Assembly: GCA_965217775.1 (NCBI GenBank)
Contig: CBDCJH010000002.1
Span: forward strand, 3,104,001-3,168,000
Direction of reading: 5' to 3'
DNA length: 64,000 nt
DNA from: Acidobacteriota bacterium
Lineage (GTDB): Bacteria > Acidobacteriota > UBA6911 > RPQK01 > JAJDTT01
This document shows positions 29,052 to 44,916 of the stretch, in pieces. Numbering within the stretch: the first letter of the stretch is position 1; every line of letters begins with the position of its first letter. A program made the translations under genes and the position numbers. Under the pieces are notes generated by a model. That model searched no databases and was not told where the DNA came from. It saw only the letters and a list, made by a program, of their open reading frames with translations.

Positions 29052-30753
29052 AGGCGCTCCTCATGAAGAAGCTTCGTTTGCTGGGCAAACGGCTGTTCCA
29101 CGGCCCGGAGTTCGCCTCGCTGCTTCGACGATGCGGCATCGAGCCCCACCGATACTGGATCCTGGTCGATCTGTTCGAGACGCTTGGCAAGCGGCAGGAA
29201 GTGACTCGGATGGGTTCCGACGCCTACACCATGCGCAGCTTCACTATCTTCTGGGTCTTTCTTTCTGGCGTATTGGGCGTCGTGATGGGAGCTCTCGGCT
29301 CCACCGCCGGAGTCTACCTCCTGGTCTTTCTCGCGCTCACCGCTTTCCAACTCAGCATGCTGCTGATCCCCGAGATCGCCGAGGGACTCGTGAACCCGGT
29401 CGAGGGGCTGATTCTGGCTCATCAGCCGGTCAACGGCGCCACTTGGTTGGCCGCCAAGCTGACCCATCTCATCAGGATCGTCGTCTACGTGGTGGCAGGG
29501 GTCAACGGCCTGCCGGCGCTCGTTCCCTTCTCGGTCCCAGCGGAGAAGGTTTCCGGCCATTCGTTTACCCCATCATGCATCTTCTGACGGCTCTCGGGGT
29601 CGGGCTGGTGGTCGGGTTCCTCTGTTGCAGCCTCTTCGGATGGTTGGTTCGCTTCGTTCCCGTCCGGCGGCTCAAGGCGGCCGCGGCCATGGCCCAAGTC
29701 ATCCCCATGCTCATTGCGCCGGGTATTCAGTTCTTGAGTGCGTCGGGTGCGTTGGTGAACGAGTTGCCGTGTTGGTTCATGTCCATCGAGCCGCCCGAAG
29801 CCTGGCTCGGAATCGGCGGCGCGGTTCCCGGGGGCTTCCCGGTTCTCCTGGCTGTGGTGGCCTTTGCTCTCACGACGGTCGCCGTCGTACCAGGTCTGCG
29901 GGCACTCTCCGTGGATCATCTGATCCGGGTATCGAGTCTGATGCATTCAGGTTCCAGGGTACGCAGGCGGGTACCGAAAGGATGGTCGATCGGGCCACGG
30001 ATCGCCAGGTTCGCCGGCGGTCAGGCCGCCCGCGCCGGTTACGAGTATCTGCGCTCAATGGTTTTGAGAGACTGGCAGTTCCGGAAGAACATGGCCATAA
30101 ATGCGCCGTATCTGTTCATCGGCCTCATCGTCCTGCTCGTTGCGGGCACTGAAACCACTCCATTTGCCACCGACTTCGCCTTCACTCACTTTCTGCCTCA
30201 TCTGATCGGAACGACGATTTTCTTCACTTGCCTCTACCTGGGGTATGGCAACGACTACAAGGCGGTCTGGTCGTTTACTATCGTTCCGGACTCTTCCTTC
30301 CGGCCGTTCGTGAGGGGAATCCATGCCGGACTCTGTTTCCTGCTGGTGGCCGTTCCCAACTTCTTCTGCCTTCTCGTGCTGGCTTGGTCCTGGGGCGTCA
30401 GAGATGCGCTGTGGGTCATCGCTTTCAGCACCGCCGTCGCCTCCCTGTATTTGGCAGTCGGCCTCAGACTGATCGACGGGCTCCCCTTCGGAAAACAGAC
30501 CCCGCCCGCTCGGCAGGTAATAACGTTAGCGATGACGATGATTTACCTCGTGGTCCTAAGTGTGGCCATCGGGATCCATTACCTCGTATTCCGTTCCGTG
30601 GTGGCGGTTGCCGCTGTGACGATCATCGTAAGTGTTGGGGCCTGCTTTCTGACGAGAGCGACGCTGGCCGATTTCGAGTCCCGTATTCGGCGCAGCCTGA
30701 ATCCGGGTGCGGTACGACAGTTTCTTGCCTTCGTCGAACAGAAAACGGAGTAG
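29048..30753 (+). pseudogene. ABC exporter membrane protein split by a frameshift near 29530-29560
   Basis: Hydrophobic sequence switches from ORF 29048-29587 to ORF 29131-30753. Confidence 0.7.
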
Positions 30754-31238
30754 ATGGGAGCACACATGAGACACGCATCCGTAACGTTGACAGTATTCGT
30801 ATTGTTAACAGCCCGTGGTAAAAGTCCTCACGGCATTCGACCGTCCCTGCATCCCGGCGGACTGCGTTGCGACTCGGTCACATACTCCCGGTATGCTTGT
30901 CTGTTATTTCTTGTCTGTCTTTCTTCTTGGGGGGGTACAGATTGTGGTGTCAGCAAAAAGGGAGCACCCTGTGGGAAATCTTTGATTTTCCACAGGGGGG
31001 TTCCGGGTGACGAGGGGGCCTCGGGGCTCTCGTTTCAGGGATTTCAAGTGGGTATGTGTCTCTTTGCATCCGGGGGGTCTCAGGGGGGGCCGGCCCCCCC
31101 TGCCCCCGTCAACGCCGCCAGTGGCGACAGCAGGCGCAGGGCCGTGACCCAGCCATCGTCCAGGCTTGGCTCGGTGGCGCCGGCATGATTTCTGGTGGGT
31201 TATTCCGATACGGGTTGGGATCTTTTGGGAGGATCCAT

Positions 31239-31392
31239 CCGAGGCGCCTCTGGCCAGAGGCGCCTCGGCGGCGGTGGTCGGGCCGTTATGTATGCCGGCC
31301 GTCAAGGGCCGGGAGGGAGTGGGGCCGCCACCGTCTTTCCCAACGTCCTGAATGGATACGTGAGCGTCAAGGCTCGCACGACAAGCACAGGA
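31239..31392 (+). ncRNA. Putative IS110 bridge RNA (5' hairpin, target-binding loop, donor-binding loop); 5' end uncertain
   Basis: Two internal loops, each with a GTCAAG-capped hairpin flanked by guides matching the target (GTATGC / GGAGGGAG) and the donor (ATGGATAC / GACAAG). Confidence 0.85.
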
Positions 31393-31402
31393 GGAAGGAA
31401 AG

Positions 31403-32356
31403 ATGACTCAGGATACCTCAAAGACGGTGGGTGTGGACATCTCGAAGGCGCATTTGGACGTGCACGAGTGGCCTTCGGGACGGTCGAAGCGGTTCCCCAA
31501 CGACACGGCAGGGTTCCAGGCCCTGGCCCGCTGGATCGGACCGGAGGTCCGGTGCGTGGTGTATGAGTCCACGGGCCCCTGGCACCGGGCGATGGAGGAA
31601 GCTCTGGCCGCTCGGTTGCCGCTGGCTCGGGTCAACGCGATGCGGGCGCGGCGGTTCGCGCAGGCGCTGGGCCAGGAGGCCAAGACCGACGCGGTGGATG
31701 CCCGGATCCTGGCCCGGATGGGGGAGGCGCTCCCGTTGCGGCGTGTGGACGTGTCCTCGCCCACGCAGCGCCAGTTGGAGGAACTGATCTCGGCGCGGGA
31801 CGGGCTGGTGAAGGATCGGACGGCGGCTCGCAACCGGAGCCACCACGCGCGCCACCCGATGGTGAAGCGGCATTTGCGACAGCGGCTGGCTCAGATTGAG
31901 CGCCAGATCCGGGCCCTGGACGGCGAGTTCCGCAAGTTGCTGAAAGCCGATCCGGCGCTGGCGCGCAAAGCCGAAGTGCTGACTTCGATTCCGGGAATGG
32001 GTCCGGTCACGGTCGCGGGCCTGCTCTCTCTGATGCCGGAACTGGGACAGATCGACTCCAAGGCGGTGGCCAGCTTGGCCGGTCTGGCGCCGGTGGCTCG
32101 GGAGTCGGGGACCTGGAAGGGACGTCGCTTCATCCGCGGGGGCCGGCATCGGGTGCGGCGGATGCTGTATATGGCCGCCCTCACCGCCATTCGACACAAT
32201 CCGGACTACATCCAGAAGTATCGCCAGCTGCGTGAGCGGGGCAAGGCGCCGAAGGTGGCGCTCACGGCGATCATGCGCAAGATGGTGATTTTGGCCAACG
32301 TCCTGCTGAGCCAGGATCGGGTGTGGACACCGCGGCCAGTCAGGGCGGTCGGATGA
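31403..32356 (+). CDS. IS110 DEDD recombinase/transposase
   Basis: VGVDISK, YESTG, KTDAVDA (DEDD); SIPGMG; GLAP...SG catalytic Ser; RRFIRGGR; RBS AGGA. Confidence 0.97.
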   Translation: MTQDTSKTVGVDISKAHLDVHEWPSGRSKRFPNDTAGFQALARWIGPEVRCVVYESTGPWHRAMEEALAARLPLARVNAMRARRFAQALGQEAKTDAVDARILARMGEALPLRRVDVSSPTQRQLEELISARDGLVKDRTAARNRSHHARHPMVKRHLRQRLAQIERQIRALDGEFRKLLKADPALARKAEVLTSIPGMGPVTVAGLLSLMPELGQIDSKAVASLAGLAPVARESGTWKGRRFIRGGRHRVRRMLYMAALTAIRHNPDYIQKYRQLRERGKAPKVALTAIMRKMVILANVLLSQDRVWTPRPVRAVG

Positions 32357-33013
32357 GTCTAACCAGGGAGGAAACAATCCCTGGAAAATCGGAAGATTTG
32401 CAACATGGATACTCCCTCATCGCGCCTTGTCCGGCGGGCGCAGGAACGGTCTCGGTGCTCGCGGGACTTTCACCACGGACTGTTAACAGCGTACACGACT
32501 GCCGCGGTGCCGACGGCGGAGGCAGCCGGCGACAAGGCCCTGGACGAATGGATTGGAACTTGGACGTCCCAGGTCGTATTCAAACCGGCTGCATGGTCGC
32601 TGAAGCCCAGAAAAATATCAGGAACGTCGAAGGCCGAGTGGATTCTGCATAGCCGATACCAGCAGATCTCCAGCCGCGCCGGGGAGTATGAGACCCGCGA
32701 ACTCCAGCGCTATGAACCGAAGAGCGGCAAGTATCACAAGTGGGTCTTTTCGTCTGACGGCTCGAACAGCTTCTGGATTGGCGCCTGGGACGCAGAGTCC
32801 TCCACCATGACCTGGGAGTACGTCGACTTCGGCGCCGGCCTCAGGGGCAAGATCGTGGATCGCTTTTTCAGCGACGGGAAATACGAATCGAAACTGCTTA
32901 TGGAGGACAGCACGGGCAACGTGCTCCTGGATGTCCGGTCCATACAGACTCCCGTCCAGAAACCCGCCGGGTAGTCCCCGTTCCGCTTCCGCAGCGGCTG
33001 GCCGTCGCCGCTG

Positions 33014-39499: not shown

Positions 39500-40317
39500 G
39501 CGGAAACCGTGCTCGTGCTAATCGCGAGTGCCGTCCTGCTGCGCGCCCAGACCGACACCGGAACCATCCGCGGCCACGTCTACGACCAGACCCGGGAGTC
39601 TGCGCGGTAGAAATGATCGTAGCGAGAAAGTGGGGAATCGAGGCCAGATTTTCTCGATTTGGAGGTGCATAGTTGTTCTATTCGCCGACAAATCGGGGAA
39701 ATATGGACCGATTCTACCGCTTTCGCAGTAGATCAATTTCTGCCGCGCAGGCTCCTAGCAGCCCGTGGCAAAAGTCGTCACGGCATTCGACCGTCCCTGC
39801 ATCCCGGCGGACTGCGTTGCTATCGGCTCACATACTCCCGGTATGCTCCCTCCGTTGCGCCTTGTCCGGCGGGCGCAGGAACGGTCTCGGTGCTCGCGAG
39901 ACTTTCACCACGGGCTGCTAGGCCGTCCTCCCCGGGGTGACCGTCACCGCGCGTTCCTTCGCCCCTTTCAATCTCAATGCCGGCTACGACAACGTGGGCG
40001 ACCGCCACACCAACACCCATCGTCCCTGGGGCGTGGGCCGAAACGTCGGCCTCGGACCCGACTACTTTACCGTGGACATGCGTGTGAAGCGCCGATTCTC
40101 CCTGGTTGAGGACAAGACCTTGGATGTCGTCGTAGAAGGCTTCAACCTGCTCAGCCGCACCAATTTGAGGAAGGTCAACGGCACCGTCGGCACGCTCACC
40201 CTGGAAGAATTCCCGTCCTCATACGAGGGACGCCGCGGACCGGTGACGAAACCGTTCTCAAATACCTCGAGATTCCTGGGGAGGCAGTTCCAGGTTTCTC
40301 TCCGCATCAATTTCTGA
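39500..40317 (+). pseudogene. Internally deleted paralog of the TonB receptor at 35285
   Basis: N-terminal remnant AQTDTGTIRGHVYDQTR (about 39530-39597) and C-terminal remnant ARSFAPFNLNAG...QVSLRINF (39937-40317). Confidence 0.85.
39759..39917. mobile_element. MITE copy 2 (159 bp)
   Basis: Same TIRs; CTAG duplication at 39755-39758 and 39918-39921. Confidence 0.92.
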
Positions 40318-44757: not shown

Positions 44758-44916
44758 CAGCCCGTGGCAAAAGTCGTCACGGCATTCGACCGTCCCTGCA
44801 TCCCGGCGGACTGCGTTGCGACTCGGTCATATACTCCCGGTATGCTCCCTCCGAAGCGCCTTGTTCGGCGGGCGCAGGAACGGTCTCGGTGCTCGCGGGA
44901 CTTTCGCCACGGACTG
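44758..44916. mobile_element. MITE copy 3 (159 bp) in a divergent intergenic region
   Basis: Same TIRs; GTAC duplication at 44754-44757 and 44917-44920. Confidence 0.92.

What the first reader, a model, noticed from the sequence alone, without database searches (positions are those of the whole stretch)
30898..32413. IS110 element whose bridge RNA appears programmed to target a resident MITE
Seen: empty MITE copies read GTATG-CT-CCCTCC, and the IS sits exactly at that CT. Joining its ends gives the donor ATGGATA-CT-TGTC. The non-coding region just upstream of the recombinase contains two parallel internal loops. Loop 1 has GTATGC (31290-31295, identical to target-left plus C), the hairpin CCGGCC-GTCAAG-GGCCGG, then GGAGGGAG (31312-31319, reverse complement of CTCCCTCC). 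Loop 2 has ATGGATAC (31352-31359, identical to donor-left plus C), the hairpin GAGC-GTCAAG-GCTC, then GACAAG (31380-31385, reverse complement of CTTGTC), closed by TCCTG/CAGGA. Known: this is the bispecific target-loop/donor-loop layout of IS621-type bridge RNAs with a CT core. Inference: this is an RNA-guided recombinase that uses another mobile element as a multicopy landing pad. Its right guides (8 and 6 nt) are longer than the roughly 4 nt described for IS621.
Basis: partly seen in the sequence, partly recalled or inferred. Interest (0 to 1): 0.95.

Follow-up and report, generated by a model that had tools for sequence, protein, structure and literature searches.

The report
IS110 element aimed at a MITE
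A small jumping gene in an acidobacterial genome carries a guide RNA whose two loops match its own joined ends and one spot at the tip of a far more abundant mini-transposon, so it lands only there; it is a clean natural example of the bridge-RNA mechanism already described for IS621, not a new mechanism.

Summary
Window 30898-32413 is a 1516-bp IS110-group element with no terminal inverted repeats and a CT core at both junctions. It encodes an intact 317-aa DEDD/Ser recombinase. Upstream lies a 5' stem-loop plus two internal-loop modules laid out like a bridge RNA. The target loop carries GUAUGC and GAGGGAG; the donor loop carries AUGGAUAC and GACAAG. These match GTATG-CT-CCCTC in the host DNA and ATGGATA-CT-TGTC at the joined IS ends.

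All 4 copies in this genome and all 3 full copies in a sister species sit at that site. The site is at the apex of a 158-bp MITE with 4-bp target duplications and an IS5-like parent. The 12-mer occurs 89 times in the genome, always inside MITE copies.

Five sister element variants keep the same donor loop and ends. Their target loops differ and match their own flanks, down to a single-base co-change between two species.

Corrections:
- Occupied sites read CCCTCA, so the right target guide is 7 nt, not 8.
- Longer right guides in IS110 orthologues are already published.
- The left guides pair with only the first core base.

IS110-family targeting of REP sequences, attC sites and Tn21 ends is known. 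This is a new member of a known kind. No RNA ends, circle junction or assay were obtained.

The parts
30805..30808 (.). 4-bp target-site duplication (TTAA) of the host MITE, left copy; the right copy is at 32483-32486
   Evidence: Across the genome, 153 of 214 MITE copies with both ends have identical 4-bp flanks.
30809..30897 (+). Left 89 nt of the interrupted 158-bp MITE, ending in GTATG-CT (left target plus core CT at 30896-30897). The left target GTATG is the 3' arm of a small hairpin, CATAC-TCCCG-GTATG.
   Evidence: target at positions 83-94 of a whole-length hairpin fold.
30898..32413 (+). IS110-group insertion sequence, 1516 bp, written TGTC...ATGGATA-CT. It has no terminal inverted repeats.
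   Evidence: Four copies in the genome differ at 1-4 of 1516 positions. The two ends share 14 of 40 bases, so there are no inverted repeats.
30918..31112 (+). Segment of the unusually long left end (IS nt 21-215). It is 77-83% identical to a multi-copy module of sister genomes that lies beside an IS3-type (rve) transposase gene. The sister element IS-B lacks it.
   Evidence: IS-B has only about 17 nt between its left end and the 5' stem-loop.
31239..31268 (+). Bridge-RNA 5' stem-loop (13 bp)
   Evidence: compensatory changes in helices 1-2.
31270..31335 (+). Target-binding loop module: outer stem, LTG GUAUGC 31290-31295, hairpin 31295-31312, RTG GAGGGAG 31313-31319, and candidate handshake dinucleotide UG 31320-31321
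   Evidence: The flanks of 7 of 7 copies match. The outer stem is 98.6% paired across 11 homologues.
31344..31394 (+). Donor-binding loop module: stem UCCUG/CAGGA, LDG AUGGAUAC 31352-31359, hairpin 31360-31377, RDG GACAAG 31380-31385, and candidate handshake dinucleotide CA 31386-31387
   Evidence: The guides match the IS ends ATGGATA-CT and CT-TGTC. They are conserved in 10 of 11 aligned homologues, which share the same ends.
31403..32356 (+). Recombinase gene, 317 aa: DEDD_Tnp_IS110 plus Transposase_20 domains, with D12, E55, D96, D99, S235 and G236
   Evidence: The protein is identical and intact in all 4 copies.
32357..32413 (+). Right end. TTGCAA at 32398-32403 could act as a -35 box that, in a circle, would sit 17 nt from TATTTC in the left end (30905-30910). 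The left donor ATGGATA is at 32405-32411 and the core CT at 32412-32413.
   Evidence: The promoter role is inferred by analogy with IS621 (passage), and the -10 match is poor.
32414..32482 (+). Right 69 nt of the interrupted MITE, starting CCCTCA (right target)
39759..39916 (+). Empty copy of the same MITE (TSD CTAG), with the target GTATGCTCCCTC at 39841-39852
44758..44915 (+). Second empty MITE copy (TSD GTAC), with the target at 44840-44851; the end coordinates assume no indel

Best explanation
Window 30898-32413 is an active or recently active IS110-group insertion sequence. Its left end encodes a bridge RNA made of a 5' stem-loop, a target-binding loop and a donor-binding loop.

Inferred mechanism, by homology with IS621:
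- The element forms a circle whose junction reads ATGGATA-CT-TGTC.
- The donor loop pairs with that junction. AUGGAUAC pairs with the bottom strand and GACAAG with the top strand.
- The target loop pairs with GTATG-CT-CCCTC. GUAUGC pairs with the bottom strand and GAGGGAG with the top strand.
- The DEDD/Ser recombinase exchanges strands at the CT core.

The target sequence exists in this genome only at the apex of a 158-bp MITE derived from an IS5-like element. About 90 of roughly 220 MITE copies carry the 12-mer. The MITE family therefore serves as a multicopy, mostly intergenic landing pad.

Shown here: the anatomy, the complementarity, the site-specificity of 7 of 7 copies, guide/target co-variation among sister elements, and conserved catalytic residues.

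Inferred, not shown: transcription of the RNA as a discrete species, circle formation, and RNA dependence of insertion.
For: Protein:
- It hits PF01548 and PF02371.
- It matches the IS621 (8wt6) and ISCro4 (9t56) transposases at E about 1e-27.
- D12/E55/D96/D99/S235/G236 align to the IS621 chain residues that correspond to D11/E60/D102/D105/S241/G242 of the paper.

RNA:
- The fold has z = -4.6.
- In 11 homologues, 94.4% of cells are paired and 8 of 31 pairs show double changes. No shuffle of 500 reached the observed percentage paired, number of pairs or cells with double changes, or covariation score; the count of further pair types was reached by 288 of 500. Shifted-register controls gave 35-54% pairing.

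Sites:
- All 4 G000 copies and all 3 full G007 copies (89% nt identity) lie at GTATG-CT|...|CCCTC[A/C] in the MITE, in one orientation.
- The 12-mer occurs 89 times, 89 of them in the MITE and none outside; 0.87 are expected from base composition.
- IS copies differ at 1-4 of 1516 positions, while their host MITE halves differ at 3-4 of 158. This indicates separate insertions into already diverged MITE copies.

Co-variation. All variants share the donor ends and donor guides.
- ACCGCCGC flanks ACCGCCG-CT in 7 of 8 copies.
- GUCGCCGCU flanks GTCGCCG-CT in 3 of 4 copies; the fourth is a wobble.
- GACGCCGCU (G003) flanks GACGCCG-CT and CACGCCGCU (G001) flanks CACGCCG-CT, a one-base co-change at 94% protein identity.
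- In G023, GGUCGCU and ACGGGAG match GGTCG-CT-CCCGT.
- The ACC and GTC variants have 98% identical proteins.

Handshake positions fit the published rule. CA after the RDG pairs with target T6-G7. UG after the RTG pairs with donor T6-A7 (G.T, U:A).

Contigs from RNA libraries cover the region with 0 differences: X11 31232-31387 and X10 31085-31571.
Against: - No experimental evidence was obtained. No circle-junction joint appeared among the contigs laid, and contigs drop rare forms.
- RNA-library contigs cannot show transcript ends or strand, and such libraries may contain DNA.
- No sigma-70-like promoter was found inside the element. The junction -10 candidate, TATTTC, is poor. About 325 nt separate the left end from the RNA.
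- The left guides do not pair with the second core base (C and G opposite A), whereas IS621 strongly prefers pairing with both core bases.
- The LTG matches only 6 nt.
- All targets are copies of one repeat, so the copies cannot show which guide positions are actually read.
- Rfam 15 returned no bridge-RNA match.
- The covariance model reached only this genus plus one other genome, 8 of 137 class genomes. The structural covariation therefore rests on close relatives.
Confidence: 0.88

Rival explanations
1. The copies spread by homologous recombination or gene conversion between MITE copies, using the 89- and 69-bp MITE arms, rather than by RNA-guided insertion. The shared site would then reflect one founding insertion.
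For: All occupied sites are homologous repeats, so conversion would also place the IS at the same position. All four occupied G000 copies belong to one MITE subtype, CCCTCATCG, which has 36 empty copies of the same type.
Against: MITE variants lie very close to the IS ends. In G007 the right flanks differ from the sixth base onward, CCCTCAGAG against CCCTCCGAAG. In G000 one copy has a substitution 18 nt left of the IS. Conversion tracts would have to end within a few bases of the IS. The rival also does not explain why the RNA loops match the site, or why sister elements' loops match their own different sites.
Confidence: 0.05
2. The site is chosen mainly by protein recognition of the DNA hairpin at the MITE apex. 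The RNA complementarity would be secondary or vestigial.
For: The left target is the 3' arm of a hairpin (CATAC-TCCCG-GTATG). The IS-B, G001 and G003 targets are also hairpin 3' arms, GGCG..CGCCG-CT. A 2026 preprint on ISPpu10 reports that a target stem-loop adds specificity (abstract read).
Against: Recombinases that are 98% and 94% identical use different left targets, and these track 1-3-nt changes in the LTG. The single G023 target shows no obvious hairpin. In ISPpu10 the structure is reported as an extra layer on top of RNA pairing, not a replacement for it.
Confidence: 0.05
3. The matches between the loops and the flanks arose by chance, or are MITE sequence captured into the IS.
For: The matches are short (6-8 nt), and GAGGGAG-like strings are common in a 62% G+C genome: CTCCCTC occurs 1577 times.
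Against: None of 200,000 shuffles gave both ordered pairs. One guide is sense and the other antisense, separated by a hairpin, so they are not collinear with the MITE. The same layout in five sister variants matches five other targets.
Confidence: 0.01

Closest known systems
IS621 (E. coli) bridge recombinase and bridge RNA (Durrant et al. 2024, PMC11208160; Hiraizumi et al. 2024, PMC11208158; passages read)
   Same: The ncRNA lies upstream of a DEDD plus Ser recombinase. The RNA has a 5' stem-loop, a target-binding loop and a donor-binding loop. The core is CT. The left guides have the sense of the top strand and the right guides are antisense to it. The dinucleotides 3' of the right guides fit the handshake rule. 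The natural target is a multicopy repeat (REP for IS621).
   Different: Protein similarity is modest (E 8e-28 over about 290 aa). The LTG matches 5 nt plus 1 core base, against 7 plus 2 in IS621. The RTG is 5 plus 2, against 2 plus 2. The left guides leave the second core base unpaired. The donor module is shorter, about 50 nt against 68. About 325 extra nt lie between the left end and the RNA. The target is a MITE with inverted repeats and target duplications, not a REP.
ISPpu10 and ISPpu9 (Pseudomonas putida IS110 elements in REP or stem-loop intergenic repeats; bioRxiv 10.64898/2026.03.19.712850 abstract read; PMC12288879 abstract and two passages read)
   Same: All insertions fall in copies of one conserved repeat. 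A stem-loop lies immediately 5' of the insertion point, as at the MITE apex here and in the IS-B targets.
   Different: Those hosts' repeats are REP-type. Here the repeat is an IS5-derived MITE with 4-bp target duplications. No functional test of the hairpin was done here.
[quoted passage not shown] 2024 passages read)
   Same: A DEDD-transposase IS with an RNA guide uses a specific site inside another mobile element as its landing pad.
   Different: Those are IS1111-type elements, with the guide RNA downstream of the gene and subterminal inverted repeats. This element is IS110-type, with the RNA upstream and no inverted repeats. The host element here is a non-autonomous MITE present in hundreds of copies.

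Membership tests
IS110 family, IS110 group (bridge-RNA type) | Recombinase with an N-terminal RuvC-like DEDD domain and a C-terminal Tnp domain carrying the catalytic Ser | tested here: met
   PF01548 scores 70.7 bits and PF02371 scores 74.6 bits. D12, E55, D96, D99, S235 and G236 align with the IS621 catalytic residues.
IS110 family, IS110 group (bridge-RNA type) | No terminal inverted repeats; a short core (CT) is present at both junctions instead of a generated target duplication | tested here: met
   The ends share 14 of 40 bases and the best local match is 5 nt. CT flanks both ends, and empty sites carry a single CT.
IS110 family, IS110 group (bridge-RNA type) | The long non-coding region is upstream of the recombinase gene (downstream in IS1111 types) | tested here: met
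   There are 505 nt upstream and 57 nt downstream of the ORF. The criterion comes from Siddiquee et al..
Bridge RNA | A 5' stem-loop plus two stem/internal-loop/hairpin modules (TBL, DBL), conserved among relatives | tested here: met
   Fold. Consensus structure and pair counts on 11 homologues. The relatives are close: the effective sequence number of the model is 1.61.
Bridge RNA | LTG and RTG are complementary to the two strands of the target, LDG and RDG to the joined IS ends, and each includes the core | tested here: inconclusive
   The RTG (7 nt) and RDG (6 nt) include both core bases. The LTG (6 nt) and LDG (8 nt) include only the first core base. Complementarity itself is met. Full core pairing of the left guides is not met.
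Bridge RNA | Target guides co-vary with target sites across orthologues while the scaffold is kept | tested here: met
   There are six target-loop variants and six matching flank types. One is a single-base co-change between G001 and G003.
Bridge RNA | Handshake dinucleotides 3' of the RTG and RDG pair with positions 6-7 of the non-cognate DNA | tested here: met
   CA at 31386-31387 pairs with target T6-G7. UG at 31320-31321 pairs with donor T6-A7, one of the two pairs being a G.T wobble. The rule is and the sequence.
Bridge RNA | The RNA is expressed, a circular intermediate forms with a junction promoter, and recombination depends on the RNA | not testable with these tools
   Only contigs were served. 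They cover 31232-31387 and 31085-31571 in RNA libraries but show no ends. No circle joint was listed. A junction -35 TTGCAA and a weak -10 were found.
MITE (the landing pad) | Short, non-coding, high copy number, with terminal inverted repeats, target-site duplications, and an autonomous relative sharing the inverted repeats | tested here: met
   The element is 158 bp (149 of 214 copies have exactly that length). There are 223 copies spanning the site. Identical 4-bp flanks occur in 153 of 214 copies. Three elements of about 1475 bp carry the same inverted repeats and a DUF772 DDE-type transposase (DDE_Tnp_1 domains in the one of two scanned).

The most novel reading that the evidence does not exclude
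Within one acidobacterial genus, an IS110 lineage whose relatives target REP-like hairpins (..CGCCG-CT-CC..) was naturally re-aimed at the apical hairpin of an IS5-derived MITE. The change involved only about 5 nt of the left guide and 3 nt of the right guide. This would set up a two-tier parasitism. Every MITE transposition would create a new landing pad, and the MITE::IS110 composite, which keeps both MITE inverted repeats, could be moved in trans by the IS5-type transposase. The RNA-guided element would then have a second route of mobility that needs no guide. The family would also show that pairing of the left guides with the second core base is dispensable.
Probability: 0.15. Interest if true: 0.55.

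Novelty: new member of a known kind. Interest (0 to 1): 0.36.

Why it matters
This locus is a compact, internally controlled natural data set for bridge-RNA rules. One genus holds six target-loop variants on a constant donor loop, including a single-base guide/target co-change.

The element studied here shifts specificity from the left guide (5 nt) to the right guide (5 nt beyond the core). It also tolerates left guides that leave the second core base unpaired. About 89 empty and 4 filled copies of its site sit in one genome.

That makes it a convenient system for three questions:
- how guide length is distributed between the two sides;
- whether a target hairpin helps insertion;
- how RNA-guided elements avoid damaging their host by nesting in another selfish element.

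It does not change the known mechanism.

Tried and rejected
Rfam 15 scan of 30700-32700 at E up to 1. It returned only chance-level hits (Xoo5, miRNA models) and no bridge-RNA family.

Covariance model R1 searched over 137 class genomes. It reached only the genus and G023, so it added no distant homologues.

The search for related loci with the protein. Of 8 loci, 3 were from the sister MAG and the rest were 33-52% identical. I did not analyse the distant ones beyond a look at their upstream DNA.

Sigma-70 scan of 30780-32520. It found 0 promoter-like sites and one terminator-like site, at 31166-31183, which is within shuffle expectation.

Sequencing runs.
- No joint that goes back (a circle junction) was listed.
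- The 'skips 1516' joints are simply other, empty MITE copies, not evidence of excision.
- The two RNA-library runs have no contig over 30933-31054, while the DNA runs do. Both RNA runs belong to one study, and contigs cannot show absence, so I draw nothing from this.
- The 156-nt X11 contig at 31232-31387 coincides with the predicted RNA, but contig ends are not RNA ends.

Hitch-hiking of the MITE::IS composite. All pairs of occupied MITEs differ at 3-4 of 158 positions, so there is no sign that a composite was copied.

Subtype preference. All 4 occupied sites are of the CCCTCA-TCG type and none of the CCCTCC types. With about half of the sites in each class this is not significant, and G007 has one CCCTCC insertion.

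The 72-nt left-end duplication as a guided event. The inner site GCACC-CT-GTGGG matches none of the four guides, so neither full-match nor half-match recombination (abstract read) explains it.

Other IS110 types in the genome. None of the 11 other PF01548 hits lies within 3 kb of the MITE.

Supplements were closed. Durrant et al. Supplementary Data 2 (target motifs per guide pair) may already list this element or its relatives, and I could not check.

Claim of no direct precedent. Two searches listed no paper describing an IS110-family element aimed at a MITE. I read passages of only one of the two papers. The library lacks most subscription journals and ISfinder.
Full report
**What is at the locus.**

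Window 30898-32413 is bounded by GTATG-CT|TGTC on the left and ATGGATA-CT|CCCTCA on the right. It contains one long ORF, 31403-32356, of 317 aa.
- The protein hits DEDD_Tnp_IS110 (PF01548, 70.7 bits) and Transposase_20 (PF02371, 74.6 bits).
- Among solved structures it matches the ISCro4 (9t56) and IS621 (8wt6) transposases at E about 1e-27 over residues 8-301.
- In the IS621 alignment, D12, E55, D96, D99, S235 and G236 fall on the chain residues that correspond to D11, E60, D102, D105, S241 and G242. The structure paper names these as the composite active site.
- The two IS ends are not inverted repeats: they share 14 of 40 bases.
- The non-coding DNA is 505 nt upstream of the gene and 57 nt downstream. 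That is the IS110-type arrangement rather than the IS1111-type (criterion from Siddiquee et al., passages).

**The RNA.**

Folding 31225-31402 gives the following (-93.7 kcal/mol, z = -4.6, 0 of 200 shuffles as stable):
- a 13-bp 5' stem-loop at 31239-31268;
- a long stem enclosing an internal loop with the hairpin CCGGCC-GUCAAG-GGCCGG, spanning 31270-31335;
- a second module closed by UCCUG/CAGGA, with the hairpin GUGAGC-GUCAAG-GCUCGC, spanning 31344-31394.

The one exception is ATGGATAC, which also occurs at the right end itself.

In the sense of Durrant et al. (passages):
- GUAUGC (31290) has the sense of the target's top strand, so it would pair with the bottom strand.
- GAGGGAG (31313) is antisense to CT-CCCTC.
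- AUGGAUAC (31352) has the sense of the right IS end.
- GACAAG (31380) is antisense to CT-TGTC at the left end.

In 200,000 shuffles of the 505-nt left end, an ordered target-type pair arose 128 times, a donor-type pair twice, and both together never.

**Corrections to the observation.**
- The four occupied sites read CCCTCA. In the sister species the base 5' of GAGGGAG is A, not G. The eighth pair is therefore unsupported, and the right target guide is 7 nt including the core.
- The left guides match only the first core base. The RNA has C after GUAUGC and G after AUGGAUAC where the DNA has T. IS621 prefers pairing to both core bases.
- In the 9-nt window that relatives use as their left guide, this element matches 6 of 9 positions.

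In IS621 the two bases 3' of the RTG and RDG pair with positions 6-7 of the non-cognate DNA after strand exchange (passages). Here CA (31386-31387) follows the RDG and pairs with T6-G7 of the target. UG (31320-31321) follows the RTG and pairs with T6-A7 of the donor, one pair being a G.T wobble.

**The host repeat is a real MITE.**
- The IS splits a 158-bp element with 25-nt inverted ends (30803-30827 and 32464-32488 on the reverse strand) and a TTAA duplication.
- BLAST with the reconstructed empty element gives 265 hits. Of these, 223 span the insertion point.
- 214 copies have both ends. Of those, 153 have identical 4-bp flanks (TTAA, CTAG, TCAA, ATAT and others) and 149 are exactly 158 bp.
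- Three elements of about 1475 bp carry the same inverted ends and 4-bp duplications; the two scanned encode a transposase with DUF772, and one also has DDE_Tnp_1 and DDE_Tnp_1_6 domains, an IS5-like make-up.
- The MITE folds as one long hairpin, with the IS target at positions 83-94 next to the apex. The left target GTATG is the 3' arm of a small hairpin, CATAC-TCCCG-GTATG.
- The MITE is multi-copy in all 8 other genomes of the genus searched. It was not found in the 6 genomes of the sister genus. A weak match in the unpublished genome G016 is not used.

**Site specificity.**
- The genome holds 4 full IS copies, all encoding the identical intact protein.
- All 4 lie at the same position and orientation in 4 different MITE copies with different surroundings.
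- The sister genome G007 is an Acidobacteriota MAG by its record title. It has 3 full copies at 89% identity, again at GTATG-CT, with right flanks CCCTCA (2 copies) and CCCTCC (1 copy).
- The 12-mer GTATGCTCCCTC occurs 89 times in the genome. All 89 are inside MITE copies, against 0.87 expected from composition.
- Of the 223 MITE copies, 87 read GTATG-CA-CCCGAA and lack the CT core, and 20 read CT-CCCGAA.
- IS copies differ at 1-4 of 1516 positions, while their MITE halves differ at 3-4 of 158. The IS therefore entered already diverged MITE copies separately. The MITE::IS composite was not copied as a unit.
- Variants a few bases from the IS ends argue against spread by gene conversion.

**Co-variation in relatives.**

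The same genome has a second element, IS-B: 4 copies, 57% protein identity, and the same ends ATGGATA-CT-TGTC. Relatives occur in G001, G003, G004, G006 and G023. All share the donor guides AUGGAUAC and GACAAG (10 of 11 aligned RNAs; the exception is a remnant without a gene). Their target loops differ and match their own flanks:

| Left guide | Source | Left flank | Match |
|---|---|---|---|
| ACCGCCGC | G000 and G006 | ACCGCCG-CT | 7 of 8 copies examined |
| GUCGCCGCU | G000 and G004 | GTCGCCG-CT | 3 of 4; the fourth gives a U.G wobble |
| GACGCCGCU | G003 | GACGCCG-CT | perfect |
| CACGCCGCU | G001 | CACGCCG-CT | perfect |
| GGUCGCU (with ACGGGAG on the right) | G023 | GGTCG-CT-CCCGT | matches on both sides |

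- In G003 the right flank CT-CCAGA also matches the right guide UCUGGAG.
- In IS-B proper, the right guides match only CT-CC, or up to CT-CCCA.
- The ACC and GTC variants have 98% identical proteins, and G001 and G003 have 94%. The change of site therefore tracks the RNA, not the protein.
- On the 11-sequence alignment the scaffold is 94.4% paired. Eight of 31 pairs keep pairing through double changes. No shuffle of 500 reached the observed percentage paired, the number of pairs or cells with double changes, or the covariation score, although the count of further pair types was reached by 288 of 500. Sliding the partners drops pairing to 35-54%.
- These relatives are close. The model's effective sequence number is 1.61, and it found nothing outside the genus and G023 among 137 genomes.

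**Expression and activity.**
- No internal sigma-70-type promoter was found.
- In a circle, TTGCAA (32398-32403) would lie 17 nt from TATTTC (30905-30910), a weak -10. In IS-B the same spacing gives TTAAAT directly upstream of the RNA (read by eye).
- This element has about 325 extra nt between the left end and the RNA.
- Public runs hold the sequence. In two RNA libraries of one study, contigs with 0 differences cover 31232-31387 (X11) and 31085-31571 (X10). This shows presence in those libraries. It says nothing about ends, strand or abundance.
- No circle-junction joint was listed.

**Comparison with what is known.**
- The layout, the CT core, the guide senses and the handshake rule are those of IS621.
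- Longer right target guides in orthologues, and the benefit of a 7-bp RTG, are already published.
- Landing in multicopy repeats or in other mobile elements is known for the family: REP for IS621, ISPa11, ISPpu9 and ISPpu10; attC for ISKpn4 and ISPst6; Tn21 inverted repeats for IS4321 and IS5075. Some of these I saw only as citations.
- A target-side stem-loop as an extra determinant is reported for ISPpu10 (abstract).
- Two literature searches listed no paper on an IS110-family element aimed at a MITE. Given the above, that is a small extension.

I therefore file this element as a new member of a known kind. The mechanism is well supported but inferred by homology, not tested, and it does not merit the 0.95 interest first assigned.

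Noticed in passing
G000:C2:5761732-5761803 and 6041127-6041198 (outside the window; loci L009, L010): Two of the four IS copies carry a 72-nt tandem duplication of their own left end, with junction ...GCACC-CT|TGTC. Both copies share one silent G>A change at the seventh codon of the recombinase gene, so the 1588-bp form appears to have transposed as such using the outer end. The inner site matches none of the four guides.
   Followed up: partly
window 30918-31112 (IS nt 21-215); L026, L034, L043 (G002), L028, L037, L045 (G005): This part of the IS left end is 77-83% identical to a module present in many copies in sister genomes. In L034 the module lies beside an ORF with rve and HTH_21 domains, an IS3-type transposase. 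The long left end of this IS therefore seems to contain a piece of another IS. Its role (promoter, insulator or none) is unknown.
   Followed up: partly
G000:C2:4662258, 2744757, 1161588, 2679078 (loci L005-L008): A second IS110 element (IS-B) has the same donor ends and two target-loop variants. It is inserted at the 3' foot of REP-like hairpins, GGCGNC..GAAA..CGCCG-CT-CC. Two of its four copies are 3.4 kb long, with an uncharacterised insert of about 1.85 kb near the right end.
   Followed up: partly
G001:C1:3983217-3984818 and 1399388-1400919; G003:C1:4517817-4519411 (loci L021, L022, L031): These are composite elements. Each has a left end like that of the IS studied here, followed by a decayed bridge-RNA and recombinase remnant whose donor guide (AUGGAGAC) matches its own remnant right end (..TGGAGA-CT). 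Then comes a second, intact bridge RNA and a recombinase. The outer flanks match the second RNA's guides.
   Followed up: partly
G000:C2:2325897-2327373, 310454-311929, 316891-318366 (L100, L101): These are the probable autonomous parents of the MITE. They are about 1475 bp long and have the same inverted ends and 4-bp duplications (TCAA, CTAG). The two scanned (L100, L101) encode a 451-452-aa transposase with a DUF772 domain; L100 also has DDE_Tnp_1 and DDE_Tnp_1_6.
   Followed up: yes
genome-wide: 87 of the 223 MITE copies that span the site read GTATG-CA-CCCGAA, with no CT core. This largest MITE subfamily should be refractory to the IS. Whether that reflects selection against insertion is open.
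   Followed up: no
G000:C2:923933, 2465894, 4640613, 322598, 1094571, 2210531, 2287427: Seven further PF01548 hits, of about three other IS110-family types, bring the genome total to 15. None lies within 3 kb of the MITE, and their guide RNAs and targets were not examined. A bridge-RNA-like remnant without a gene lies at C2:4368226-4368392.
   Followed up: no
window 31301-31306 and 31366-31371: Both hairpins of the RNA have the same hexaloop, GUCAAG. The donor-loop hairpin of the relatives has AUCAAG (one variant AUCAUG, one AUCGAG), so the loop sequence may be a protein contact.
   Followed up: no
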